Of a DNA stretch of 64,000 nt, positions 1 through 51,235 are shown in pieces. Both the position numbers and the translations under genes were made by a program. The stretch is from Trypanosoma brucei (Eukaryota). The notes below the pieces were generated by a model, which worked only from the letters and a program-made list of their open reading frames with translations, was not told the origin of the DNA and searched no databases. The stretch is taken from NCBI GenBank assembly GCA_000002445.1, contig CP000071.1, positions 576,001 to 640,000 of the forward strand, given 5' to 3'. Positions within the stretch are counted from its first letter, which is position 1. Each line of letters starts with the position of its first letter.

Positions 1-441
1 AGTGAAGGAGAAACAATATAATAAATTTCAGGAAATGAAAGTTTCCGCACGAAACGGAAAAGAAGGCCCACCACGGCGTAGAGCAGCGGTCACATAATGC
101 GCTGAGTGTTCCCTTCACCGTGAACTGTCTGCCTGTGCCGGCTACCTTAAATAGGGATCGGATTGGTTGGCGTCGTCACACTTTGCATACGTAAACGTAG
201 CACCTGCGCTTATTTCATCGTCTTTCCCTTTTCCTTCAGCGGAGTTGGACAGGCAACGCCGGAAAACAAAGTGGATAAATAAATAAGGGGATAGAAAGGG
301 AGAAAATAGGTGAGGACGGGCACACACGAAACACCCACATATGTATATATATATATATATGTATACGTTCCACCATTTTCTAGCTCCTTTTTTTTTCTTA
401 TCTTTCCCCTCTCCCTCAGCCACACATACTCCAAATCTCAT

Positions 442-940: not shown

Positions 941-2295
941 CAATGCTAATTTCCCCTCCCCTCTAATTATACGAGAGTTTGCACTAGTACTTCGTCAACC
1001 ACGTACGACGCTATTTGTAAGAAAAATATCCGAGTTTCAAGACTAGAACTGTATTTTTTTTTTTTTGCGGTGTATGTGTTTGAACACAATGTGCCACTAT
1101 CTGTGTTGAAGGGTCCACATTAAAAAACAATAATGACAACAAGGGATGAAAGAGGTGAACAAAAAAAAAATCCGTATATTCAGTCAAGCTGCAGTGGCAT
1201 TTAAATGAAGCACTGTTGTGTTCAAACACATCATCACTAAAACACGAAACATCTTTTTTTTTTAAAAAAAATAGAGGGATGTTGTGAGGCGGAACCACGA
1301 ACGCGAGTGGCGCATGTGAACAAAATTTGAGGAACTCTGATTTTGGAAGGGCAACAGAGTAAACACAATAACAGAATGGGAAATGCTTCTCTAAAGGCAT
1401 GCCGACACATGCGCTTTTGTCGCTATTCACGTAGCGGGATGTAAAGAGCAGCTCAGATTGCGCTATGGGAGTGATTAAACAAATAAACACACAAACACAC
1501 AAAAAGCCACACGAAAAAAAAAAGAAAGGCAAGGAGACAATGAAAAATGTGTAAATCAGTCGCTCCTCCATCCTTCTTTTTTTTTTTTTACAAAAAAAAA
1601 ATTATTTTTATTTTCCTTCCCAGACTAATCTCAAACTTTTCAACCCACCACTCGTCCTCTTCTTCCCTTTCCTTTTCTTAACCACACATTTATCTATTTA
1701 TTCCGCACCACCTCATTATTTCACATCTCCCTATTTGTGAAGCCACCTTTTTTTTTTTAAAAAAAACATTAATGGAGAACTAAGGGAGCCAGCGACACTG
1801 CTAAAATATAAGTGCATAAGTACAACTGCGTATAGTCGTGCGAAAAAAAAAAAGAAAAAAAAACACACACATGTCAATGGGCAGACGGGCCAAAAGGAAG
1901 AGGTCTAAAAAAAAAAAGGAAAGAAGCAGGAAAAACATAAAACATAAAATATAAAACACAAAACATAAAACAGAAAAGAAGAAAAAGAAACAATGAAAGG
2001 CACAACTGATGAAGGATGAACAGCGCACTTCACGATAAGAAAGGAGAGGAATATCCCATTAAGAGATGAAAGAGGAAACAAATACAGCACTGTTTATCAT
2101 AACACCTTTTCCACACCGTCTTATTCCCCACTAAGATGCATTACAAACGCAAATAAATGAAAACGGATGAAGCGGGTAATTGAGGAACAAAAATGTCAAT
2201 GATGGGCACTCAGATCAGCGCGTAGTGATGTAAACAGATCATACACACAAAGCCAGAACCAACAAGAACAGCAAAAAAAAAAAAAAGAACACGAG

Positions 2296-2332
2296 TATAT
2301 ATATATATATATGTATATATATGTATGTATGT
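2296..2332. repeat. TA-rich (TA)n/(TATG)n microsatellite
   Basis: Sequence reads tatatatatatatatgtatatatatgtatgtatg. Confidence 0.9.
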
Positions 2333-2367
2333 TAGGCAATCCACCTTTCGCTGGTAAAAAACCTTTT

Positions 2368-2384
2368 TCTCTCTCTCTCTCTCT
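2368..2384. repeat. (CT)n dinucleotide repeat
   Basis: Sequence reads tctctctctctctctct. Confidence 0.9.
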
Positions 2385-3690
2385 GCGTCTTTTTTGTTTT
2401 TTTTTTCCTCCACGTAGCTTCATCAAGTGTTTTAAAAGCATTTTTTTTTGTTTTTATCTCCTTTTCCTCCCATAATTTCACATCGCAGATATGTGGTTGA
2501 TGCAAAATTCCACCACACTTTCGACAAGTTCCCTTCCGTATGCTCACAAACTTTCTGTCGCTTTGTGACTTTACTCTCTTAAATTAAAACAATTCTTCAT
2601 GCAAGTGCCCACCCTTGACGTTGCCTTAGCTGTATGCCTTTCCTGTCAATTTTTTTCTTTTTTTTCTTTTTGTTGACTTGCCGCCTTCTTTGTTACCCTT
2701 TTGTTGCATTTTCCTTAACATTTCAACGTTTCACTCCGGTTTTTCTTTCTTTTTCGTTTACTTCTTGACCCCTTTTCTTTGACTGTTGTTGTTGTTGTTG
2801 TTGTCGTTTCTCTCCCCTTCTTTACTTCTCCGATCATCAACGCATTTTTCTTCTTTTTTTTTTATTTTATTTTATTATTTTGCCTTACGGAAATTACACC
2901 ACAGGTGGAGGAACACACAATGAACAAACTTATCAAGCAGTAAATGGCCCTAAAAAGAAATATTTGGATAATCGCCGCACATTTAAGGATTACGCCTCCC
3001 CTGTCATTTTTTTTCTCTTTTTTTAATTTTTTGACCTGCCGCCGCCTTCCACGCGAAACGCATCGCGGAATTCCCTTCGTTTGTTTTCTCTCACATATGT
3101 GACATATATTTTTCTCTTTATTTTATTTTTGTTATTTTTAAATGATGAATTGACAGCGATGTTGCATAGTGTGAAGTAAATGGATCAGTACCCAACGCGC
3201 AACTAATCCCCCACTTCATCAGGGACGAAGTTGCGTAAATAATTGAATAACAAAAGTAAAAAAAAAAAAGGACAACAAACTACCTTCCGCTCCAACGTTT
3301 GAAAAAGATAAGAAAAAAAAAATTAAAAAGTGACGAAAAAAAAAAGAGCCGTGTTGTGAGCCTCTTCATTCACCCACTCCGATAATCATGAGATGAACAG
3401 AAAACAAGAGACCAAACAAACAACAATAATAAAAATAATAGTAATAAAACAACAGGGGAAACTGGTCTCTCAGAACAGAAAACACCAATCCAACAACGCT
3501 AATTAAACAAAAAGGAGTTAAATATCGTGGAGTAAATTAGAATCAAAAAAAAAAAAGAAAAACTCGAAGATCATGGATAGTAGTAATAGTAATAATGATA
3601 ATAGTAAAATATAACAAAAAAATCTATTGTTCATATATATATATTTCCTTCCTTCTGATCTCTTGGTTTCTCTCTTTTTTTTTTCCACGA

Positions 3691-5271: not shown

Positions 5272-5298
5272 CGAACCCTTTCTTCTATATTTATTTCC

Positions 5299-5350
5299 TC
5301 CTCCACTTCCACTTCCACTTCCACTTCCACTTCCACTTCCACCTCCACTC
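5299..5350. repeat. (CCACTT)n hexanucleotide tandem repeat (6 perfect + 2 degenerate units)
   Basis: ccacttccacttccacttccacttccacttccactt then ccacctccactc. Lies in the intergenic/5' flank of the 3691..5271 gene. Confidence 0.95.
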
Positions 5351-6232
5351 CTTTTTCTTTTTCTTTTTTTCTATAAATAAGTAAAAAAGTAAATATATTA
5401 ATAAATGTATCCCCCTGTTACCTCTCACTTACCCTTCTTTGCACTGACACCCCGCTAACGTGTGGCGCTTCACCGATTAAAACACTAGCCGATGTTTAGC
5501 TGTGAGTAGCGTTGATATGATGCCGCGTATGCGTACGTACGTGTGTTTTGTGTGCGCGTGTGTATTATTATTATTATTATTTTTTTTTTTGGGGGGGATG
5601 GGTGAAGGAAGGGATGGAACTAACAAAAATAAAGCAAACAAAAGTAAACCAACTCAAGTAAAGGGGGAAATAAAATAAAAATAAATATGGAACCGAGTGA
5701 AGGTCCCCCAGGGCGCTACGAATATTTGATAGAGACAAAAATAAGAAAAAAAGAGAGAAGAGCACATGAACAAAACAAAAAAAAAAACAGAGGAAAGGAA
5801 AAGAAACAAATGCTCCGTTTGACAGATTAATGCAAAGTGACAGAGGACAAACAGCTTTAAAAGAACACTAAAGAAGATCAGTAGCAACAGTAACTGAAAG
5901 AGAAAAGAAAGAAAAAAAAACAAGGGCAAACGCAAATAAAAGAGTTCCTCCTTGTACTTTACTAATTAAGTTATTTTTCGCCTCCCCGCCTGCGGTGGTG
6001 GTGGCCGGAAAGAGAGAAAAAGAGGAGAAAAAAAGAAAGAATGACTTGCCTTTTGCCACGCAACTGCCGCACACCGGTACCATTGTGAGAAGCGGAAACG
6101 AAAGGACGACGGCATTCGGTCAAGTCATTTTGAAGAGGGAGCGAAGGGGAGGGGGAGAAATTAATAAAGGAAAAAAAAAGAAAAGGGAACATATCGTTTG
6201 TGCCCCGTCGCTTCACCAGCAATTATACGCGA

Positions 6233-6264
<32 letters not shown>

Positions 6265-8140
6265 TACAATAATACGTGAAGGGGAAAGGGAGATAAAACG
6301 AAGAGACAGAAGGAATCCGCGTTCATTGAACGGCTCGCCGGTGCTACACATGTTTCCGCAAACCCCCCCCCAAAGTAAATATCACAAAGAAAGCAAAACT
6401 GCAGGAGATCAATGAGAAAAAACAACAACTGAAGACTATCGATGAAAACGTGTGACTCTCAGCACACGGCAATCATGTCACTACTGCTTAGCGAAGGAAA
6501 AGGTGAACGGGGCGTCTCCGTTTTATCACCGATGAAAAGCGTGTGGATGGAGCGCGGGTGAAATGAATAACCACAAAAAACTAGAAAAAAAAGACTTTTT
6601 TTTCCGGAGGAGGGGGGAGTTGGAGACAAAAAGGCACATTTGTTGTCGCAGAAGCGGTTCTGGTTCCTTTATGTCAGGCCTCGTTAGATTTTAAATCACA
6701 CATTTTCTCTTTACCAACCGTATATCCCTCTTACCTCAGCTCTACCGCACATATATCATATACAACACACATGTACATGTATGCCAATGAGAGGTAGGGA
6801 GATATGATACGTGCATGATGGGAAATTTAGCTAAAGGGGCAACAGGATCAATTAAAGAGGACAAAAATAAAAAAAGAAAAAAGAAAAAAAAAATAAGGGC
6901 GGTCTCCCTCATGGAAAGTAAATGCACCGTCCCCCCAACACCAGTGGATGGTTGGCGCAGTTTTGTGCCCTCGACGATAACAACGAGTAGTGTGACGTGT
7001 TAAAAGCAACGCAAAACAAAACAAAACAAAGAGAGAGAGAGATGACTGACCAAACTGAAGGAGATGCAATAAATATCAAAGGAAAGCGGAGAATTCCGCA
7101 AACCGAAACACTTCGCCCCCCCGCCTCCCTCCCTTTCTTCCCTCTTTGTCTTTCGTGTAATCCCCATTTCACATTTCTGTTCCATATTAACTTTTCTCCA
7201 AGCCCCTCTCCTCTCCTCACCTCCCCCACAAAAAAATATAATATAATATATATATATATATATTTAACCTTTAACTCAGTCGCCATTTTCCCCATCCATT
7301 TGCTTTTCCTTAAGTCCATGCCGCGCCTTCACAGAGAAGTGAGTAAAACAAGGAACATAAGAAGAGCCCAAAAGCCTCGTAATAGGTTTGAGCATTCGCA
7401 CACATGACGTAAATAAATAAATATATGTGTACATATATATGTAAAGCAAAGAGAGAGAGAAAGAAAGTCAACGACGCGAACGAAGCAAAATAAACATAAG
7501 GAAGAAAGAAGGGTAGCTGCGCATCGCACATTTACATGCACACCCACGGTGTCGAAACAATAAAAGCAACAACACTCAAAACAAAGGTAAAAAAGAAAAA
7601 AGAAGAAATATAGAGGGAGAAATACACATGGATTAAGAAAAATATGGAAGGGAAAGATGACTGATGGGTGGCTTGTAAAGACAAGATAGTGTCTTTTACA
7701 TTCTACTTCGCCACCTTTCCCCTAAAGGAGGTGGAAATCACACATAAGGACGCACATGCGCAGTAGAATGACCCCGATTGCACATAATAAACCCTCAAGT
7801 GTTAACGCAGCAGAGTTCAACACCGGAGATGAAGGGTAACTAGCAAGTTATACTGAGTTCTCCCTTTCTCCCCCCCCCCACGCACACATATATGCCTGTT
7901 GAAGCTCGTCTATGACGAACCAAAAGTACAGAATTCAATCTGTACGGCACCATTTTCCCCTGCTCATCTTGAACACGAGTAGTGGTAACTCTCATTATAT
8001 AACCAACTGTTTAGCCTGAACTGCTTCCCACTAACTTGGGCTTTACAACTCAACGCGGCAATTTACCCTAGACATGCGTACATAAAATACCGCACAAGAT
8101 AAATGATTTGTTTTTTTCTAACTGTGTCTTTACGCCCTTT

Positions 8141-10480: not shown

Positions 10481-11574
10481 TTGAATGTGTCTTCTTCTGC
10501 CCGCTATTCCGTGCCGAGGCCGAAAGGTATCGGATAACCAAACTTGGTGAATGAAAGAATCACGCCCACTGCGTATATATATGTATATATTCTAAGATAT
10601 TTCCTTCGTTTCTCTCCACCCGTGAGCGCGTGTGCGTCCTTGCACCACGCCTCCCTTTCCTTGCCTTCGACTTTCCCCGTGTCTTCCTCTGTATAATCCC
10701 TCAAATCCACTTTTCTAATTCAGTTTTTTTTTTCTGCTCTCCTCGGAGATTACAGTGGGTCCAGAGGTTAGATAGAAAAAAGGAGAGAAATGGAATGACA
10801 TCCAATCAGAGAAGAAGGAGGAGGGGGAGGGGAGGAGGGATATGTATGTCGCAAACAATCTCGACTTAAAGAATGACAACAAGCCCGAAAAAACAACACA
10901 ACAACGAAAACAACGCCACTGGATAACACAGCAGTCAGCGGACGCTTATGGTACACTTTGAGTCAAGAAGGACGAGGAGGTGGATAACGAAAACAATCAA
11001 ATCAACATCATCTTCCCCCCCTTTTTTTTCTCGCTACCTTTCTTTCCATATTTCTCCGTAACCGTGCATTACCGTTGTCATTTTCGTCGTATGTAGTTTC
11101 GTATTAAAAAAAAAAAAAGACACCCCTTTCATGGCATCCTTCCTTGTGTCTCACTCTTTAATTTACTGTCTTTCTTTTCTTTTCTCTTTTCAGTTGTTGT
11201 TCAATTTCCCATCGTTACGATCATTCATTAATATGCGCTGCCAGTCCCGGCTGCAGTTCTTGTAGACACACACCGACAAAAAAAAAAGGAATAAAGAAAA
11301 AAAAAACAGAGATTATGGGATAATTGTGTAAAAACACCGCGCTGAATATCATTGTCTAACAAGCTTTTCCATATTCTTATTTCTTCACCGATGTCCACAC
11401 ACTCTTTCCCCACTTCTTCCCGCTGTTGTACAACCGTTGCGCATTCAACGAAGTAAAGTTAAAAATATGTGAGGGTTGAGAGAAGGGAAAAGAGATGAGG
11501 GTTGAAGAAAACACATGCACACAAACTCCCACGTGTGTGCATACATTATGTGTGTAGTAGATGTGTACATATAA

Positions 11575-11665
11575 ATGCGTACAAGTACATGCAACTACAT
11601 ACATACATGTACATATATGCATATATATGTATATATGTATATAAATATTTATTTATATACACTTG
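11575..11665. repeat. Alternating purine-pyrimidine (CATA/TGTA/TATG)n low-complexity tract
   Basis: acatgcaactacatacatacatgtacatatatgcatatatatgtatatatgtatataaatatttatttatatac. Confidence 0.85.
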
Positions 11666-12910
11666 TTTGTGTGATTGTTGACCAAACTTCCTGTTTCATG
11701 GCATTACCACACGCCCTTGAGAGGTGCTGCGGCGCCGGAATATGTAGCCTCCTTTTTTGCCTCCCATTCACTCACTCATTCATTCATTCAATCATTTTTT
11801 TTTCTCGTGCATTTTGCTCATTGTATTTTGTCACGCGGCAGAACCCCAGGGCTCATGTGAAAGACGAAACCAAAGGAATTAAAAGCGTAAGTTATAAAAT
11901 GATAGAATGAAGTGTGGGGAGGGAAAAAGGGATTTTTCTTTTTTTTTTTTTAAAAGGGGGAGAAAGTGCCAAAGAGCAAAGTGAGCAACACCAAGAGAAA
12001 TAATAATAATAATTATTATTATTTTTTGAGACTCACACAAACAGGGTACAGTTTCCAACGGCCTCAATAAAAAAAGAGTGCGTGGATAAGGGGGGAAAAG
12101 AGATATTAAACAGGGGAAGAAATAAATAAGAAGGAAAAAAAAAACAAAAGTAGATCAGGATGAAAACATTTCCCTTGAAATATATTTGTCTTGACAAATC
12201 CAGAAGATGATATAAGCCCCCTCACAACACCCATTACCCATTTCGGCCTTTTACAACAGCACACAAAATTAGGCAGTAAATTCCCCGTTTCGAGCCCCCC
12301 CCCCCCAAAAAAATGCGTTTCGGCCCCTCAACTCCCGGTTGTGAATGTCGTGGTAATAACGATAAAAATATTGAAATAATAATGAAAATCAAAGTAGTTA
12401 TGAATTAAATATACCTACGCTCGCTCTCTTCCTCTTCCTCTTCCTTTCCCTCTCCCTCCCTTTTCATCATTTCTATATTTTGATCACTTACTGAATAGTT
12501 CTTTTTTTTTTTTTTAAGTCTGAACAATGGGTTGCCAGTTCAATCGGCATAATATAATTTCGGGTTTGGTATCAACTTGGCAGTTACGTTACCATCACCC
12601 CAAATCCTCCCCGTTTCATCACTATTTTATTTTTCCCCCTTCTTGATTTCTGTATGTTTACATTATTTACCATATTCGCACCACCTCATCCGCTACGTAA
12701 GTCACAGATGTGTCTGCTGCCTCTAAGTACCTTTAATCGCGTTTATACATTTGATGAATTCATTTACAGTTGTACATAACTTCACATTACCTCGGAGAAA
12801 AATAAAATTAATACAAAAAAAAGAAAAAAGACAGTTGTACATCCGTACATATATTTAATATATATATATATATATGCCTGTTCACTTATACGCATCTGTA
12901 CACCGAAATG

Positions 12911-33583: not shown

Positions 33584-33598
33584 CCCCCCCCCCCCCCC
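33584..33598. repeat. C15 homopolymer (G15 on the minus strand)
   Basis: Intergenic tract reads ctaccccccccccccccccag. Confidence 0.9.
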
Positions 33599-41481: not shown

Positions 41482-41920
41482 AGGTACTGTAAAAAAAAAA
41501 AAAGTGATAAAGCTAATAATACGAGAATAGGAAGGTAAAAAGAACGATCAGCGAGAGTTCGTGCACCTCTATGACCAGGGAGGGGGGAGGGGAGGGGAAA
41601 GCACCCTTGAGCACGAATCTAAACTGGTACCACCGAAGCGCAAATCACTTACATATTTCTTCCGCAGCGCGAACCTTCTGTTCGATAAGGGCGGCCGCCA
41701 ACAAGTCAATATGTGGAAAAAAAAAAAACAAAGGAACCGCGCCCAACAAATAAATAAATAATAATAATAGCACACCATTTGGTGTTCATCTTCCATTTTC
41801 CCCATTGGAATACCGAGGATGAACGGATACGCATGAGCCCGTCTATCAAACCATGCACCACCACAGTGAAGGGTAGCGCACGCGGCCACCCTGCCGACAA
41901 AACACATCGATCTGTGTCTC

Positions 41921-45145: not shown

Positions 45146-45976
45146 CTAATTCTTGAGTGCATCAAGGCGCTTCTGAATTGCCTGTTTTCTCCTTTCAAGA
45201 TGTTTTATGCGAAATTCTTCTTCAGTTGGTAACACGACATCAACAATGAAGGTTTCCTCAGCCATTTGGCTACGCCCAGGCGACGACTCGCTGCCGTGTG
45301 AATACACTGACCTAAGGTTACGCTCGGCCTCAGTTTCAATGCAGCGTAATAAGTCCTCGGAACCGCGTGAAGCAAGCTCCTCGCGGTAGAGAGTAGATGG
45401 TTTTGGCGCATCATCGTCGTCATCATCGGAATTCGATGAAGCATGTGAACCAGACTCCCAACCATCCTCTTCATTTTCCACATGGGCAACGACCTCCTTT
45501 GCATCGTCCCTTTTAGCCTCTGGTAGTCCAGCAGCGCACCCGAAGTAGATCTTTCGTGGAGCAGCCCTTCTGTGGGTTTCACCGTTTAGAGTGGCCAACC
45601 TGCGCTCCCATAAATTCTTCTTGGAAATTAGTTGATTTACTTCATCGTTTTTAGCGCGGACGACGACCTCGCCATGGGTTTCGATACTGACCAACTCAGG
45701 GTTCCGAAGTCGGGCAACCTTGTCTCCAATTTCTTGCTTGGTCTTGAAAATAACAAACTTCACAACATTGACATCGGCAGTTTCGAGTGGGCTAGAGGGA
45801 AGACTGCGTATTCCAAGGCTCGATAACCGCTTCTCATCAGCCTTGCGCTTCGCTAATCGGTAAAGGACGGTATTTTGTCTCTCTCTTTTCCTCGCTAATC
45901 TACCCTCGATTTCCCGCAAGTAGTCTTGCATACTATAAAAATACTGGAAATGAGCAAGTTGCGGATATATATGCAT
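45146..45976 (-). CDS. ISY1: Pre-mRNA splicing factor ISY1-like protein
   Basis: Collinear matches to ISY1: EVNQLISKKNLWERRLATLNG (cf. DEINKLLREKGHWEVRIKELGG), YFGCAAGLPEAK (cf. YFGAAKDLPGV), and a C-terminal basic helix ending RRKQAIQKRLDAL. Confidence 0.6.
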   Translation of the reverse strand: MHIYPQLAHFQYFYSMQDYLREIEGRLARKRERQNTVLYRLAKRKADEKRLSSLGIRSLPSSPLETADVNVVKFVIFKTKQEIGDKVARLRNPELVSIETHGEVVVRAKNDEVNQLISKKNLWERRLATLNGETHRRAAPRKIYFGCAAGLPEAKRDDAKEVVAHVENEEDGWESGSHASSNSDDDDDDAPKPSTLYREELASRGSEDLLRCIETEAERNLRSVYSHGSESSPGRSQMAEETFIVDVVLPTEEEFRIKHLERRKQAIQKRLDALKN

Positions 45977-46213: not shown

Positions 46214-48103
46214 TTAGTCGGCCTTTCCATAACGATATATCCATCGAACAAACAAAAAACAGGCCAAGAAGCCTACAGATCCAGCTGCTACCGAAAAGAG
46301 AAAACTTAGTAAACCCATATAACCGACATACAAAACTGTGGGAACCATGCCCTCTATTTTCACACTTCCCTCCGTGGCGTAGTAGAGAGTGTAGAGGAAC
46401 AGGTACAACCCTGAGCTTGATCCAATGAAAAACGACTTCCACCACCAACGGTGATCCTCTGCACAAAGAGAATAGTAAATAAAAACTATCGCGGTCTCTG
46501 CGGTAATAATGACAAATAGAACGCCAACTAGGAAGAGGAAGCCGAAAATATAGTAAAATCTGTTCAGCCAGATTGCACCCAAAATAAAATAAGTCTCGAA
46601 AAAAACGGCAGCAAAAGGCGGGACGCCTGCTGATAAAACTGCCAGTGTTGACGAATACCAAGGCTGGGCGGGTATGTGGCGCGGAATCTGGTTGTAATTT
46701 GATGGAACGGATATGGTTCCCTGTTTGAATCCCAACACAGCACCGAAGTACACTAGTGGGAGACTGACAAAGAACCAGATACATACCACCAAAACAACTG
46801 AAGAAAACGGAACGGCGGCACTACTCGACTGAGACCAAACGAGTAGGTTTACCACAAAAAATATGGCAAATGATGACGCCGGTACAATGGTCCCGGTAAG
46901 AAAAACATACATCCACTTTGTTCTATTCCATAGTTTCAGCAGACGCGCTGAAACATACCCACCAGTAACACCAAGGAGAGCAAAGCAAACGAGGAGTGCT
47001 GTGAAAAGGCTGCCGCGGTTTTGTGGGGAGAAAAAGCCCATGGTGGCAAACACGACGACGGTGAACGACATACCTAATAGTTGTACACCAGCGCCGGTAA
47101 AGCACGCAAGAAGCCACCCATTGGGTGGCGGCCGAAAAACATCGCGACACAGTAACTTCCAGCCTATGTCATCTAAATATTCCGTTTCATCTATGTCCAC
47201 ATCGGCTAACTTGCCCAGGTCGCGGCGAACGATACGGACCAGCAAGACAGCAATAACGATTGTGAGAAAGATGACGAGTAAAGTAGAGTTCATAATGGAG
47301 TACCAGTGGTTTTTTTCCTTGTGAACACTTAAATAAATATCCCACCTAGTAGACCATTTTTCTTTACTCTCGATCCACGAAACGCCATAGCTCCATATGA
47401 TCCGGTCGGTATCCGCTGGGAGTGGCGCTATGTTAGATGCAAGGTGACCGTCGAGCGGTTGTGCACAAGGCGCTTCAGATTTGTGCGCTACAGAAGAAGC
47501 CTCAGCAACAAATGTCAAAATACGGTACTTTTCTTCGCCTCCATTTTGTTTAACGTTGTCTGGCGTATAACTGATAGTAAAATGTATGTGGTTGTTAACG
47601 TAACTTCTCCCATCGCGCATAAAACCGAGTGGAACTCCCATTACAAAATTATTGTTCCCACTCGCCTCGGCAAGAGGAAGACCGTCCATGAGAAGGTTAA
47701 TACGGTAATTTTTCTCAATGGCCTTCTTAAGGAACCTCGTCTGCTTATCTTTGTCCACCCCTTTTTCACAGACAACGCTGCAGCTGACGTTGCTGAGCAA
47801 ACGGATGTTTTCATAAGGAGATGTCTTAATCCGATCGCCCATAAGGGAACCTCCAATATTGTTTGATTTCTTTGAGATAGGTTCCTTTGGGCGGCATGTC
47901 GGAAGGGCTTTGTAGTAGTCATACGGTAAGTGGGTTCTGAGTGACGTCAGAACATTAACCTCAATCGGTACCACCTCATTCCGCGCAAATGCATGAGGGT
48001 TGATGCTTGGTAAAAGACAATCAACACTTCCACAAACGGCAATCAACCAAACGGTTAAGCTAACAAGATGTCCATATAGATTGTTGAGAAGCATCGCCAT
48101 CAA
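46214..48103 (-). CDS. Transmembrane 9 superfamily (TM9SF/nonaspanin, EMP70) protein
   Basis: 629 aa. N-terminal signal and lumenal domain followed by 9 TM helices. Conserved nonaspanin blocks (DVFRPP, GAGVQLLGM, FLGYSPA-like). First gene of the minus-strand unit next to the strand-switch region. Confidence 0.85.
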   Translation of the reverse strand: MMAMLLNNLYGHLVSLTVWLIAVCGSVDCLLPSINPHAFARNEVVPIEVNVLTSLRTHLPYDYYKALPTCRPKEPISKKSNNIGGSLMGDRIKTSPYENIRLLSNVSCSVVCEKGVDKDKQTRFLKKAIEKNYRINLLMDGLPLAEASGNNNFVMGVPLGFMRDGRSYVNNHIHFTISYTPDNVKQNGGEEKYRILTFVAEASSVAHKSEAPCAQPLDGHLASNIAPLPADTDRIIWSYGVSWIESKEKWSTRWDIYLSVHKEKNHWYSIMNSTLLVIFLTIVIAVLLVRIVRRDLGKLADVDIDETEYLDDIGWKLLCRDVFRPPPNGWLLACFTGAGVQLLGMSFTVVVFATMGFFSPQNRGSLFTALLVCFALLGVTGGYVSARLLKLWNRTKWMYVFLTGTIVPASSFAIFFVVNLLVWSQSSSAAVPFSSVVLVVCIWFFVSLPLVYFGAVLGFKQGTISVPSNYNQIPRHIPAQPWYSSTLAVLSAGVPPFAAVFFETYFILGAIWLNRFYYIFGFLFLVGVLFVIITAETAIVFIYYSLCAEDHRWWWKSFFIGSSSGLYLFLYTLYYATEGSVKIEGMVPTVLYVGYMGLLSFLFSVAAGSVGFLACFLFVRWIYRYGKAD

Positions 48104-50550
48104 CCTGAAGAGGATCTAAATGCAGATTGCAGTGGTAAACGAAAGGAGTTGTTCATTCATAAACACACGTGTATTCACGTACGTATACAGGCCGACAAAC
48201 ATATCCACGGATATGTTCACGTATGCAAGTGCTAAAGAGAATTCATTTTATGAAACGAAAGGACATATTTACAAACAGAACGCTGCACCACAAGGGCAGC
48301 CGCATGAAAGACTCGAGAGTGTCGAAAGAAAGAAAGAAAGGAAACTAACTGTACCGCTCCGGTTTTATTACACAAGCTTGATGTCCAGTAACCACGGTGC
48401 ATGCATCACGCCAACAACACTACCTCACGAACGCCATATTTTCGAGAAGGCCTAACAACAATAAAAGGAGGACCTCCTGCCCAAATCGCAGACGCCGCCC
48501 TACGGTCCAACAACATCAGAAGGGGAGCACCTGTGGTTTCGACCTCCCACGAGGGCCATGGCGGTAGCATCGCTCCGCGACCTTTACATGCAAACGAAGA
48601 ACTTGCGTGTGAGCCAGGTGCCTGGGGAGTGTTGTCCTAGCTGCCTGCCCCCGGGGCTCTGCGCTTACTCACTCCGGCCCCCACGCTGTGTGGCTGGGGG
48701 AGGGGTCGGAGGGCTGACCTGGCCGCCCTTTTATCACTCTCCTCCATCTCCTCCTCCCACTTCCGTTTTGAAACTATCGCCCTGGAAGCGGCGTCGGCGT
48801 TACGGCATGCAAGATCCAAGTCGATCGGAATGCGACTGGGGCGATTCCCAGAAAAAAAAACCAGGCGGCACGAAGTAAAACTTCTTAAACAAAAGGGTCC
48901 CAAAGAGCAGTCAACCAGGTGGGGACATTCAAGATATGGCTTGCGAATGCATTTCTAGGCTAAATATGGAGCCACAGGGACATAATAAAAGCACTAGCTA
49001 GCACAATTTTGATACTTCGGTTGCGCTTGCTTGGTTAACCAGTTGGGCGCGTGGTGCCCGCCAGCTGGTTGGACGGGGTTCTATGGAGTCACCTGGCCGT
49101 CCGTGGAACAACCAAGGGTTTCTGCCCGTTGTACGCGATGCCACCCTTGTGGGGCTCAACTGCCGGGCCCAGTGGCGTTTTTGCTTAGAGATTTCGTCTT
49201 TATAAATGGAGACTCCTGTATCCCCTCCCCACGAGCGGCCGCCGTGGGTTGTGGGCCGAATTGTCGGTGCCCAGCACCCCGTCCTTCGGAATGCACCCAG
49301 AGGTCGTCAATTCCTTTGAGAAGGCTATGTCCGGCCTGGTGGTCGGTGTCCGGCAACCTGATTGGTGGCAGGGTCCGCCGTACTCGCGGAGGGGCACGGC
49401 ATGTACGCCACTTCCTTTGCACAAGCAAGGTGAGTGTTTTTCCCTTGCGTGCCCGTATGTGTTTATCGTGCTCATTTCTTTTTTACGATACTCATTTTTG
49501 TTGGGACAGGGGGGTTGGTGAGTAGATGGGTAGGCCCGTGTGTGGCTGAATAATGGCGTTTGTGTTTTTACCTTTATAGGTAATGTAGGAGGGGAACGAA
49601 TGATTGGACTGAGTTACAATGAAGAAGACTGCTCACTGTTCCGTAGGTGCTAGCGAACCGTGGTTTGAGATGCGTTTTTTTGTTTTTGCGTAGAATTCAA
49701 TTTTCGATGGTTACCGAGGGAGGTCTAGCTGGTGAGCAGTGATCTCGTCGCGACTATTGATGAAAACGACATCAGTTTTATTTTTGTACTTCGCGATCAG
49801 TAGCGTACACCTACGTTATTTATATCTTTATTCCTTTTCGTGGAACCTCGTGAATCCCTTGTGTTTCTGGGGATGGGGTCGTTCCTGCGTTGATGGCAAC
49901 TTGTGGAAGGTTCTTCGTATTTTCAATGATTGACCGTTTTGCGTTTTGATGTTGGGATCTCAGTGCCGAAGAACTGAATGAAGGGAAATCCTTGGACACT
50001 GATAAAGCATATCAATGGTGTTCCAACGGACGGTTAGTCATTTGCCTTTATTGTACATATTCTTTTTTTAAGGTTTGAAAATCTTGGCTGCCTCACCGTT
50101 GAAGTATCAAAGCGGGGCCACATTTGCTTTTGTTACTTATGTTGGATCAGATAGGTTCTGCTGTGTCGGAGCGTTTCACCCCGCCACCGTGCCCGCTTGG
50201 ATGCATGCTTGTCTCCATTGAGTGTGAGAGTCCCAGAAAATAAGGGGTTGGTATATGCTGACGGCACATACCGTTTTTACCTATTCTTTAAAATGTAAGC
50301 AGGGGTTTACCTGTTTCTTACTTACCTATTCTTAACGATGCTGCCTCCTCCCAACGTTGGCCGTGGACATATACTGAAAATATTTTGGAGGAGTGCGCAG
50401 TACAAGATGGAACTTTGGTTGCAGTCCTGCTGATCCATCCATATGCTGTGACAGTGTCAACCGATCTTTTCGGAAAAAGCACGTTGGCTATGACTATTTT
50501 TCATTTGCCATCCCCAACTCTTTTGAAGCCATTGTTGTAATCTAGTCTGC
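48104..50550. promoter_or_regulatory. Divergent strand-switch region, the probable bidirectional Pol II transcription start region
   Basis: All upstream CDS are on the minus strand and all downstream CDS on the plus strand. The 2.45 kb gap has no credible ORF. It contains a GC-rich island (~48540..49420), a G-run at 48696..48720, GT-rich plus-strand tracts at ~49428..49560, and CA-rich plus-strand tracts (GT-rich on the minus strand) at ~48400..48560. Confidence 0.75.
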
Positions 50551-50988
50551 ATGTTTTCGTTACGGGAGATACTTTCGCAACTTCCCTCCGACGGTGCAAC
50601 TAAATGGATACGGGTTGAGAATGTTAAATCCCCCATGTCAAGTTTGGATGTTTCCCAGTTGTTTCCCGATGCAGTGAGTTGGGATTTTTTGTCGAGTGTT
50701 CAAAGGACAGACTATCTCGTCACTTTTCGGAGTGAATCATTCGCTAGAAAAGCGATGCGAAGTGCATGCGGGTTTTCATACCTTGGTGAGAGGCTCAAGT
50801 TTTCATATGCGGAGCCTGGCGACATTGCAGAAGGCGCATCACCCGCGCGAGTGACAATTGCCCACCCCCGTCTATATTTGCTGCCTCCAGAGTTTTCTTA
50901 TGAGGAGCGAGTAGCTGAAGCAGATCGTATTATTGCATCTGTGAGCACAACCGATTCGTATAACAACGCCTGGGTAGATACCTACTAG
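50551..50988 (+). CDS. Small hypothetical protein with an RRM-like fold pattern (145 aa), first ORF of the plus-strand unit
   Basis: RVENVKSPMSSLDVSQLF...DYLVTFRSESFARKAM...YLGERLKFSYAEP resembles an RRM-like beta-alpha-beta layout. Weak; it could be non-coding. Confidence 0.35.
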   Translation: MFSLREILSQLPSDGATKWIRVENVKSPMSSLDVSQLFPDAVSWDFLSSVQRTDYLVTFRSESFARKAMRSACGFSYLGERLKFSYAEPGDIAEGASPARVTIAHPRLYLLPPEFSYEERVAEADRIIASVSTTDSYNNAWVDTY

Positions 50989-51235
50989 TTGGGCGCACTG
51001 CGGTTACAAGCCGTTTCCCCAATTTTTACCTTTTTGTTTCAATGCGTAACCACTTAATGCAGCAAAAGCGCTTGATCTACTTGTTGAGGCTTATAACCAC
51101 TGTGAATTACGCAATCAAGTAGTATCCACACCAGTCTAAGGTTGAGGTGGCATCTCTACTGTCTACCACTCCCCTCTTTAAAGCTGCCGCTGTTGTTGAT
51201 GTTTTCTCTTCATCTTTGGATACACGGCAAAACAA

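What the first reader, a model, noticed from the sequence alone, without database searches (positions are those of the whole stretch)
48104..50550. Divergent strand-switch region with the layout of a bidirectional Pol II transcription start region
Gene polarity flips here: 19 genes run leftward on the minus strand and 10 run rightward on the plus strand. The 2.45 kb between them has no ORF. It contains a GC-rich island, unlike the AT-rich, homopolymer-rich intergenic DNA elsewhere in the window. GT-rich tracts sit on the template-appropriate strand on each side: CA-rich on plus at ~48400..48560 (GT-rich for the leftward unit) and GT-rich on plus at ~49428..49560 for the rightward unit. That arrangement matches the GT-rich elements reported to drive Pol II initiation and H2A.Z deposition in T. 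brucei. Trypanosome Pol II promoters are still poorly defined, so a compact case like this is useful.
Basis: partly seen in the sequence, partly recalled or inferred. Interest (0 to 1): 0.6.

Follow-up and report, generated by a model that had tools for sequence, protein, structure and literature searches.

The report
Known trypanosome bidirectional transcription start region
This is the gap between two back-to-back gene arrays on Trypanosoma brucei chromosome 8, which was already published in 2010 as a two-way RNA polymerase II start region; its GC-rich core is real, but the short "GT-rich tracts" flagged here are no denser than in ordinary spacers between genes.

Summary
The window is T. brucei TREU927 chromosome 8, 576,001-640,000. 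The offset is exact: it was checked against published ORF, poly(A) and splice-site coordinates. The interval is the divergent strand-switch region between Tb927.8.1940 (EMP70) and Tb927.8.1945/1950.

Kolev et al. 2010 (Table S14) already list both flanking units as "Divergent" Pol II transcription units, based on 5'-triphosphate RNA-seq. The main interpretation is therefore right but not new.

**Confirmed:**
- The polarity flip: 19 leftward and 10 rightward ORFs.
- No credible coding ORF in the gap.
- Two GC-rich blocks (48541-48800 and 49021-49430). These are the two most GC-rich stretches of the whole 64 kb, coding sequence included.
- The minimum of cumulative strand asymmetry for the whole window falls between these blocks (48782 and 49006).

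**Not confirmed:**
- The two short GT tracts are ordinary. They sit at about the 90th and 98.6th percentile of other spacers, occur at comparable density there, and contain none of the published GT-rich 10-mers.
- Only a broad rightward GT domain (about 49.3-50.3 kb) is unusual.
- The right 480 bp of the "empty" gap holds a published processed transcript, Tb8.NT.36 (50073-50434).

The GC blocks show no homology, no RNA structure and no extra conservation. Their role is unknown; my best guess is nucleosome or promoter context. Interest is low.

The parts
46214..48100 (-). First gene of the leftward unit: EMP70/TM9SF endosomal membrane protein, Tb927.8.1940
   Evidence: 628-aa ORF, 99% identical to the T. 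b. gambiense 'endosomal integral membrane protein', Pfam PF02990. The published poly(A) site 622047 equals window 46047.
48311..48345 (-). Polypyrimidine tract on the minus strand ((GAAA)n on plus, 48317-48345) followed by the first AG (plus-strand CT at 48312-48313). This is the predicted splice-acceptor region for EMP70.
   Evidence: Read from the sequence. The acceptor position is my inference; no published coordinate was recovered. The repeat length varies between strains.
48346..48540 (-).
   Evidence: CA 0.64 over 48400-48560; the best 133-nt window is 0.684, starting at 48385. This is about the 90th percentile of other intergenic DNA, and no Wedel 10-mers are present.
48541..48800 (.). 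GC-rich block I (GC 0.64)
   Evidence: The top GC window of the whole 64 kb at 260 and 410 bp. No repeats, Rfam hit, RNA structure or homology.
48801..49020 (.). AT-richer central spacer (GC 0.455) with an A9 run at 48852. It holds the inflection point of strand asymmetry.
   Evidence: The whole-window minimum of cumulative G-C is at 48782. The minima of T-A and of GT excess are both at 49006.
49021..49430 (.). GC-rich block II (GC 0.61)
   Evidence: The second-highest GC window of the 64 kb. RNA fold z-score -1.03. The 164-aa ORF inside it looks non-coding and has no true homologues.
49431..50072 (+). Broad GT-rich, G-skewed domain on the rightward sense strand. It ends in a polypyrimidine tract (about 50040-50069) and the AG at 50071-50072.
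   Evidence: GT is 0.61-0.64 over 640-1000 bp starting about 49324, the 99.9th percentile of the window. GC skew is +0.295 in 49501-50000, the highest in the window. Ten Wedel 10-mer hits fall in two clusters, at 49674-49679 and 49775-49778.
50073..50434 (+). Tb8.NT.36: the first processed transcript of the rightward unit, with low coding potential
   Evidence: Kolev 2010 Table S7 gives 626073-626434 (+), 0.55 RNA per cell. An AG lies immediately upstream. Only 1 variant in 362 nt among T. brucei-group strains, against 7.2 expected (P=0.006). Its ORFs score as non-coding, and the fold z-score is +0.39.
50529..51112 (+). Tb8.NT.37, the mRNA of Tb927.8.1945 (CDS 50551-50988, 145 aa). This protein is restricted to the T. 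brucei group, with a T. congolense homologue.
   Evidence: Kolev Table S7 gives 626529-627112, with an AG at 50527-50528. Named 'T. brucei spp.-specific protein'; the T. congolense homologue is 66% identical. Codon score 0.115.

Best explanation
The interval is the divergent strand-switch region of Trypanosoma brucei chromosome 8 (TREU927 coordinates about 624,104-626,550). It lies between Tb927.8.1940 (EMP70) and Tb927.8.1945/1950 and is already catalogued as a bidirectional RNA polymerase II start region.

**Likely mechanism.** RNA polymerase II initiates in a dispersed way on both strands within the ~1.7-kb core between the two first splice-acceptor regions (about 48345 to 50040). Sense primary transcripts are made usable by trans-splicing at the first acceptors. 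On the right these are published: 50073 (Tb8.NT.36) and 50529 (Tb927.8.1945). On the left I predict an acceptor at about 48311 for EMP70. Upstream leader RNA is discarded.

**Direction.** Direction is probably favoured by G+T excess on each sense strand. That excess changes sign at 48.8-49.0 kb. It is strong and sustained only on the rightward side.

**Chromatin.** Competence for initiation is thought to come mainly from the chromatin marks known for all such regions (H2A.Z/H2B.V, H4K10ac, H3K4me3, bromodomain factors), which spread several kb into both arrays.

**GC blocks.** The two GC-rich blocks flanking an A-rich spacer are most likely nucleosome-favouring or promoter-context DNA on either side of a central accessible spacer. 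This step is inference only.

**Shown versus inferred.** Shown: the locus identity, the polarity, the composition, the published transcription-unit assignment and the published first transcripts. Inferred: the exact start sites, any role of the GC blocks, and the left acceptor.
For: **Locus identity**
- The window is 99.2-99.7% identical to T. b. gambiense DAL972 chromosome 8 and to T. equiperdum assemblies.
- An offset of +576,000 reproduces four published coordinates. The Tb927.8.1930 ORF (621146-621976) equals window 45146-45976. The Tb927.8.1940 poly(A) site (622047) gives the reported 166-nt 3'UTR. The starts of Tb8.NT.36 and Tb8.NT.37 each fall directly after an AG.

**Published evidence of initiation**
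- Kolev 2010 Table S14 lists both units as 'Divergent'.
- The text reports sense and antisense 5'-triphosphate read enrichment at every divergent unit, coinciding with the histone marks of Siegel 2009.

**Sequence evidence**
- Polarity flip.
- The whole-window minimum of cumulative strand asymmetry lies inside the gap.
- The sustained rightward GT domain is at the 99.9th percentile.
- Wedel 10-mers occur only on the sense strand on both sides: 10 to 0 on the right, 2 to 0 on the left.
- No competing feature was found: no tRNA, Rfam family, repeat, coding ORF or structured RNA.

**Comparative evidence**
- EMP70 is the first gene of its array, with a divergent neighbour, in T. cruzi, T. theileri and T. 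melophagium as well.
- A GC-rich block followed by a GT-rich block and then a polypyrimidine tract also lies upstream of EMP70 in T. theileri, T. cruzi and T. vivax, although T. vivax has a same-strand upstream gene rather than a strand switch.
Against: - No read-level data could be examined here, so the start sites within the gap are not located.
- The leftward side lacks a distinctive GT signal.
- The hallmark long G runs of T. brucei start regions are absent; the longest are G6 and C5.
- The GC blocks evolve at about the neutral intergenic rate among T. brucei-group strains: 15.7 versus 20.0 events per kb, P=0.22.
- The GC blocks have no sequence counterpart in other species, so there is no sign that their sequence is functionally constrained.
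- The cross-species compositional resemblance rests on three or four loci and has no statistical control.
Confidence: 0.87

Rival explanations
1. One reading: the two short tracts (48400-48560, CA-rich on plus; 49428-49560, GT-rich on plus) are the GT-rich promoter elements of Wedel 2017. On this view they drive initiation and H2A.Z deposition in each direction.
For: Both tracts have the skew on the appropriate sense strand. Both lie upstream of the first acceptor of their unit. Synthetic GT-rich elements do drive orientation-dependent reporter expression.
Against: The skew values are at about the 90th and 98.6th percentile of ordinary intergenic windows. Equally skewed tracts occur at 0.98 per kb elsewhere, against 0.82 per kb in the gap. 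Neither tract contains any Wedel 10-mer, and there are no long G, T or GT runs. The windows densest in Wedel 10-mers are the long AT-rich spacers at 1-8 kb inside the leftward array.
Confidence: 0.15
2. The two GC-rich blocks are the functional core: two separate, oppositely oriented, sequence-specific Pol II promoters of the kind reported by Cordon-Obras et al. 2022, or else nucleosome-positioning elements. Block I would serve the leftward array and block II the rightward array.
For: They are the two most GC-rich stretches of the 64 kb. They sit symmetrically around the strand-asymmetry inflection, each followed outward by a sense GT-rich stretch, a polypyrimidine tract and the first acceptor. 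A similar GC-then-GT layout lies upstream of EMP70 in T. theileri, T. cruzi and T. vivax. Later papers summarise divergent regions as holding two oppositely oriented core promoters.
Against: There is no excess conservation within the T. brucei group. There is no shared motif or alignable sequence across species. The Cordon-Obras motifs could not be obtained for a test. High GC content could instead be a mutational by-product.
Confidence: 0.25
3. The GC-rich core is a decayed remnant of a gene or mobile element left at an evolutionary rearrangement breakpoint. On this view it has no role in initiation.
For: The gap is a synteny breakpoint: the partner array differs in every species examined. 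The first rightward gene is restricted to African trypanosomes. A 106-aa ORF in block I is annotated as a gene in DAL972 only. The blocks evolve at the neutral rate.
Against: There is no coding signature, no Pfam match and no true homologue of the 164-aa ORF among 1.84 billion representatives. There is no translated or nucleotide similarity to the neighbouring loci of other trypanosomes or to the rest of the window, and no repeats. GC content exceeds that of real coding sequence here.
Confidence: 0.15
4. The central spacer and GC blocks additionally serve as an ORC1/CDC6 binding site, and possibly as a replication origin.
For: Tiengwe 2012 report at least one ORC1/CDC6 site at 62 of 88 (70%) divergent regions. 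The sites lie centrally between the twin H4K10ac peaks, and 19 early origins are centred on divergent regions.
Against: Nothing specific to this locus was recovered. The chromosome 8 origins named in the text are at 1.45 and 1.9 Mb, not 0.62 Mb. No sequence signature exists to test.
Confidence: 0.4
5. An unannotated small RNA gene (tRNA-like, snRNA, snoRNA or other structured RNA) lies in the GC-rich core and explains its composition.
For: Some T. brucei Pol II units start next to tRNA, snRNA or rRNA genes (Table S14).
Against: ARAGORN found nothing. Rfam found nothing at gathering thresholds and only chance-level hits (E of 3 or more) at relaxed thresholds. Fold z-scores are -1.03 and +0.91. 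Kolev classed both units as 'Divergent', not 'next to tRNA/snRNA'.
Confidence: 0.03

Closest known systems
T. brucei divergent strand-switch regions as Pol II start regions (Siegel et al. 2009, recalled from memory and as cited; Kolev et al. 2010, PMC2936537)
   Same: This is the same organism and the very same locus. It shows divergent arrays, sense and antisense primary transcripts reported for every divergent unit, and processed transcripts beginning just inside the gap.
   Different: Nothing essential differs. This example lacks the long sense-strand G runs often noted at such sites. It has an unusually GC-rich two-block core, a feature I did not find described in the papers read.
GT-rich dispersed promoters of T. 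brucei (Wedel et al. 2017, PMC5579346)
   Same: Sense-strand G+T excess appears on both sides of the inflection. It is strong and sustained on the right. The few matching 10-mers are found only on the sense strand.
   Different: Wedel's elements are rich in long G and T homopolymers and (GT)n, and they were defined over the 5' fifth of ~10-kb H2A.Z domains. Here there are no such runs.
Sequence-specific 75-bp unidirectional Pol II promoters in T. brucei divergent regions (Cordon-Obras et al. 2022, Cell Rep 38:110221; known only through citing papers, and from memory of the abstract)
   Same: The symmetric layout, with two distinct blocks facing outward from a central spacer, fits the reported 'two promoters, each unidirectional'.
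   Different: The paper and its motifs were not available, so no motif comparison was possible. The blocks here are 260-410 bp, not 75 bp.
Leishmania major chromosome 1 strand-switch region (Martinez-Calvillo et al. 2003; from memory and as cited)
   Same: Bidirectional Pol II initiation from a short region between divergent gene arrays, with no canonical promoter.
   Different: It is a different genus. As I recall, the Leishmania region is under 1 kb and centres on C/G tracts; no such tract is present here.
Mammalian CpG-island bidirectional promoters (analogy drawn by Kolev 2010)
   Same: A GC-rich, TATA-less region with divergent sense and antisense initiation.
   Different: CpG is not enriched here: observed/expected is 0.79 in the blocks against 0.94 for the whole window. 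The T. brucei genome shows no CpG depletion (window-wide observed/expected 0.94), so the CpG-island concept does not transfer.

Membership tests
T. brucei divergent strand-switch Pol II transcription start region | Two gene arrays diverging from a common gap | tested here: met
   19 minus-strand ORFs lie to the left and 10 plus-strand ORFs to the right. Gene tables of three T. brucei-group assemblies agree.
T. brucei divergent strand-switch Pol II transcription start region | Primary (5'-triphosphate) transcripts arising in both directions | not testable with these tools
   No reads were available. In the literature the feature is met for this locus: Kolev 2010 Table S14 lists both units as 'Divergent', and the text states enrichment at every divergent unit.
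T. brucei divergent strand-switch Pol II transcription start region | Enrichment of H2A.Z/H2B.V, H4K10ac, H3K4me3 and BDF3 | not testable with these tools
   No ChIP tracks were available. Kolev states that the read enrichment coincided with all sites marked by Siegel 2009.
T. brucei divergent strand-switch Pol II transcription start region | Switch of G-over-C and T-over-A strand asymmetry at the gap | tested here: met
   The whole-window minima of cumulative G-C (48782) and T-A (49006) both lie inside the gap.
T. brucei divergent strand-switch Pol II transcription start region | First trans-spliced transcripts begin just outside the initiation zone | tested here: met
   On the right, the published starts 626073 and 626529 map to 50073 and 50529, each directly after an AG preceded by pyrimidines. 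On the left the acceptor is only predicted.
GT-rich promoter (Wedel 2017) | Enrichment of the published coding-strand 10-mers near the 5' end of the start region | tested here: not met
   The two claimed tracts have zero hits. The gap has 10 sense hits on the right (two overlapping clusters) and 2 on the left, against up to 20-22 per 2 kb in ordinary internal spacers.
GT-rich promoter (Wedel 2017) | Long homopolymeric G or T stretches, or (GT)n, on the sense strand | tested here: not met
   The longest runs in the gap are G6, T7, C5 and A9, with no (GT)4 or longer.
GT-rich promoter (Wedel 2017) | Sense-strand G+T excess beyond the local background | tested here: inconclusive
   The short tracts are ordinary. 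The right half at 640-1000 bp scale is at the 99.9th percentile; the left half is at the 83rd.
GT-rich promoter (Wedel 2017) | Orientation-dependent reporter activity and H2A.Z deposition | not testable with these tools
   This needs an experiment.
Sequence-specific 75-bp Pol II core promoter (Cordon-Obras 2022) | Presence of the published functional motifs under a Pol II ChIP-seq peak | not tested
   The paper is not held in the library, so the motifs are unknown to me.
CpG-island-type promoter | CpG enrichment relative to the genomic background | tested here: not met
   CpG observed/expected is 0.79 in the blocks, 0.94 in the window and 0.99 in the EMP70 coding sequence.

The most novel reading that the evidence does not exclude
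The twin GC-rich blocks flanking an A-rich spacer, each followed outward by a sense GT-rich stretch, a polypyrimidine tract and the first splice acceptor, could be a compositional promoter architecture for trypanosome polycistronic units. On this reading it is not sequence-conserved. GC-rich DNA would position the first variant-histone nucleosomes, or the two unidirectional core promoters, around a central accessible spacer. The layout would be maintained upstream of EMP70 from T. brucei to T. cruzi and T. theileri despite complete sequence turnover.
Probability: 0.2. Interest if true: 0.45.

Novelty: already known. Interest (0 to 1): 0.17.

Why it matters
How RNA polymerase II chooses start sites for trypanosome gene arrays is still debated, between dispersed GT-rich chromatin-driven initiation and short sequence-specific promoters. 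This locus adds no new case, because it is already in the published catalogue of start regions.

The check does show two things. First, sense-strand GT skew read by eye does not separate start regions from ordinary spacers, because the skew is a property of whole arrays. Second, the one feature that does stand out here, a two-block GC-rich core centred on the strand-asymmetry inflection, could be tested cheaply genome-wide against existing Pol II and H2A.Z maps.

Tried and rejected
- **tRNA and Rfam scans** of the window and of the gap: nothing at gathering thresholds, and only chance-level hits when relaxed.
- **Direct, inverted and tandem repeats:** only short chance pairs and a (GAAA)4 tract.
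- **Structured RNA:** fold z-scores of -1.03, +0.91 and +0.39 for block II, block I and Tb8.NT.36.
- **Hidden gene or pseudogene:** no Pfam match. Codon-usage scores look non-coding. A full HMMER search with the 164-aa ORF returned two hits that are artefacts of tandem-repeat proteins. The 106-aa ORF is not in the protein collection as a TREU927 product.
- **Homology of the gap** to the T. congolense, T. vivax, T. cruzi, T. theileri, T. melophagium and T. grayi loci, or to the rest of the window: only low-complexity matches.
- **Footprinting with T. congolense** failed. The only contig with EMP70 is truncated. The T. congolense orthologues of Tb927.8.1945 and Tb927.8.1950 have no contig on record.
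- **Conservation within the T. brucei group.** An apparent two-fold deficit of variable columns in the GC blocks disappeared once indels were counted as single events.
- **G-quadruplex motifs:** none in the gap. **CpG enrichment:** none.
- **Literature:** Cordon-Obras 2022 and Siegel 2009 could not be retrieved, so their motifs and tracks were not compared.
- **Replication-origin role:** no locus-specific information was found.
Full report
**Where the window comes from.** The 145-aa ORF that opens the rightward array is encoded identically in T. b. gambiense DAL972 chromosome 8 (FN554971.1) and in two other T. brucei-group assemblies, one of them T. equiperdum. Twenty kb around it is 99.2-99.7% identical to the window.

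Published TREU927 coordinates then fix the origin exactly. Kolev et al. 2010 (PMC2936537) give the Tb927.8.1930 ORF as 621146-621976, and the window has an 831-nt minus-strand ORF at 45146-45976. The Tb927.8.1940 poly(A) site at 622047 gives their 166-nt 3'UTR from the EMP70 stop at 46214. Two of their transcript starts, 626073 and 626529, map to 50073 and 50529, each directly after an AG.

The window is therefore Tb927_08 576,001-640,000, and the finding covers about 624,104-626,550. Flanking gene identities agree with the literature:
- Tb927.8.1930 is ISY1 (Pfam hit; the gene ID appears in a pre-mRNA splicing-factor paper).
- Tb927.8.1940 is the 'endosomal integral membrane protein'.
- Tb927.8.1945 is a hypothetical protein.
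- Tb927.8.1950 is the next gene, 710 aa.

**Checking the observation.**
- *Polarity flip: real.* There are 19 minus-strand ORFs of at least 150 aa to the left. To the right are nine complete plus-strand ORFs and a tenth that runs off the end.
- *No credible coding ORF in the gap.* The 106-aa and 164-aa ORFs inside it score like spurious ORFs in a codon-usage test trained on the window's genes: -0.06 and -0.075, against -0.023 +/- 0.075 for spurious ORFs and 0.00-0.21 (all but one at least 0.055) for real genes. The neighbouring 145-aa gene scores 0.115. They have no Pfam match. The 164-aa ORF has no true relative among 1.84 billion representative proteins; the two hits are short matches repeated along tandem-repeat proteins.
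- *GC island: real and strong.* It has GC 0.58 over 900 bp, against at most 0.48 in the 25 other intergenic regions. At 260-410 bp it supplies the two most GC-rich stretches of the entire 64 kb, coding sequence included. It is really two blocks, 48541-48800 and 49021-49430, separated by a spacer of GC 0.455 that carries an A9 run.
- *Short GT tracts: do not hold up.* The right tract (GT 0.707) is at about the 98.6th percentile of same-size sense-strand windows from ordinary intergenic DNA, and the left tract (CA 0.64) at about the 90th. Equally skewed tracts occur at 0.98 per kb in 18.4 kb of ordinary spacers, against 0.82 per kb in the gap.
- *One broader GT signal does stand out.* The right half at about 49324-50324 has GT 0.61-0.64, the 99.9th percentile of the window. 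The left half is at the 83rd.
- *The gap is not empty.* Kolev's Table S7 places a processed transcript, Tb8.NT.36, at 50073-50434, and the Tb927.8.1945 mRNA (Tb8.NT.37) at 50529-51112.

**What it is.** Kolev et al. list 'Tb927.8.1940 -> Tb927.8.1670 (-) Divergent' and 'Tb927.8.1950 -> Tb927.8.2660 (+) Divergent' among their putative Pol II transcription units. They state that 5'-triphosphate reads, both sense and antisense, were enriched at every divergent unit and at all sites carrying the histone marks of Siegel et al. 2009. The locus is thus an already catalogued bidirectional start region.

Nothing else competes for the sequence. There is no tRNA, no Rfam family, no repeat and no exceptional RNA structure.

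**Anatomy.** Reading outward from the centre, the whole-window minima of cumulative G-C (48782) and T-A (49006) fall in or at the edge of the central spacer.
- *Leftward:* GC block I, then a modestly sense-GT-rich stretch (48346-48540), then a polypyrimidine tract on the minus strand ((GAAA)n on plus, 48317-48345), then the first AG. I predict the EMP70 acceptor there, at about 48311.
- *Rightward:* GC block II, then the broad GT-rich and G-skewed domain (GC skew +0.295 in 49501-50000, the window maximum), then a polypyrimidine tract, then the published acceptor at 50073.

Both start zones must therefore lie within about 48345-50040. Placing them more precisely needs read data.

**How it most likely works.** From established knowledge of these regions (Siegel 2009, Kolev 2010, Wedel 2017), Pol II initiates dispersedly on both strands. 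It does so within chromatin marked by H2A.Z/H2B.V and H4K10ac, which spreads roughly 10 kb in total into the arrays. Sense transcripts become productive through trans-splicing at the first acceptors.

Sense-strand G+T excess can confer direction in reporter assays, and the rightward domain here would fit that role. By Wedel's own descriptors, however, this locus is a weak example. The gap holds only two small clusters of them on the right. Runs of G and T are short. Ordinary AT-rich spacers at 1-8 kb of the window carry far more of these 10-mers.

The strand skew is a property of whole arrays. It marks the switch point rather than a discrete element.

**The GC blocks.** These are the one unusual feature, and their role is unresolved.
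- They show no excess conservation among T. brucei-group strains: 15.7 events per kb, against 20.0 in other spacers and 5.4 in coding sequence (P=0.22). An apparent deficit was due to multi-column indels.
- They have no sequence counterpart in T. vivax, T. cruzi, T. congolense, T. theileri, T. melophagium or T. grayi.
- CpG is not enriched, and there is no G-quadruplex motif.
- EMP70 heads its array next to a divergent neighbour in T. cruzi, T. theileri and T. melophagium as well. The partner array differs everywhere, so the gap is an old array boundary and a synteny breakpoint.
- Upstream of EMP70 in T. theileri, T. cruzi and T. vivax there is again a GC-rich block followed by a GT-rich block and a polypyrimidine tract. 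This is suggestive, but it rests on a handful of loci with no control.

My preferred reading, at low confidence, is that the blocks provide nucleosome-favouring or core-promoter context on each side of an accessible spacer. That would fit the 'two oppositely oriented core promoters' reported by Cordon-Obras et al. 2022, as summarised. I could not obtain that paper to test its motifs. A neutral origin, either mutational bias or rearrangement debris, is not excluded.

**Verdict.** The main interpretation is right but already known. The argument from short GT tracts is not supported. The GC-rich two-block core is real and mildly interesting, and it could be checked quickly against public Pol II and H2A.Z tracks.

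Noticed in passing
window 50073-50434 (+): The published low-abundance transcript Tb8.NT.36 (0.55 RNA per cell) is far less variable among T. brucei-group strains than other non-coding DNA: 1 event in 362 nt against 7.2 expected (P=0.006, uncorrected for six tests). Yet its ORFs score as non-coding and it has no special RNA structure. It may be a functional small ORF or RNA, or this may be chance.
   Followed up: partly
window 33584-33598 (C15 on plus, so G15 on the leftward sense strand): A 15-nt G run lies on the sense strand in a 1.5-kb internal spacer of the leftward array, next to a strongly purine-skewed stretch (33.5-34.5 kb). G10 is the most enriched start-region 10-mer in Wedel's list, yet Kolev lists no internal start site in this array.
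   Followed up: no
window 1572-3690, 5272-8140, 10481-12910: Three unusually long (2.1-2.9 kb), AT-rich (GC 0.34-0.41) spacers inside the leftward array carry the highest density of Wedel's 'start-region' 10-mers in the window (14-22 sense-strand hits per 2 kb). The 10-mer list therefore largely reports T-rich spacer or UTR composition.
   Followed up: partly
window 48558-48878 (+); L001 8003-8323: A 106-aa ORF inside GC block I is annotated as a gene in T. b. gambiense DAL972, but not in the T. equiperdum assemblies or in TREU927. It looks non-coding by codon usage and is probably an over-prediction in GC-rich DNA.
   Followed up: yes
window 50551-50988 (+): The first rightward gene, Tb927.8.1945, is restricted to the T. 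brucei group with a 66%-identical T. congolense homologue (labelled RRM domain-containing); Pfam finds no domain. One paper reports that its mRNA is among the very few that fall when the VSG-mRNA stabiliser CFB2 is depleted (PMC8051951).
   Followed up: partly
L006 (T. vivax), L008 (T. cruzi), L009 (T. theileri), L010 (T. melophagium), L011 (T. grayi): The array EMP70-ISY1-DOT1-M20 peptidase is conserved across Trypanosoma, but whatever lies upstream of EMP70 differs in every species. It is a trans-sialidase in T. cruzi, an RNase PH gene in T. melophagium, and same-strand genes in T. vivax and T. grayi. The array boundary is thus a recurrent rearrangement point.
   Followed up: partly
window 41578-41597 (+) and 7116-7142 (-): These are the only canonical G-quadruplex motifs in the window apart from the G15 run, and none lies in the strand-switch gap. 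The one at 41578 is on the antisense strand of the leftward array.
   Followed up: no
window 48324-48327, 49587, 50062: The strain-to-strain indels in the gap fall in the (GAAA)n tract, next to a short G run (GGGG at 49582-49585; a GGG insertion after 49587 in two of the three other assemblies), and in the T run of the polypyrimidine tract just before the 50073 acceptor. Both predicted splicing tracts therefore vary in length.
   Followed up: no
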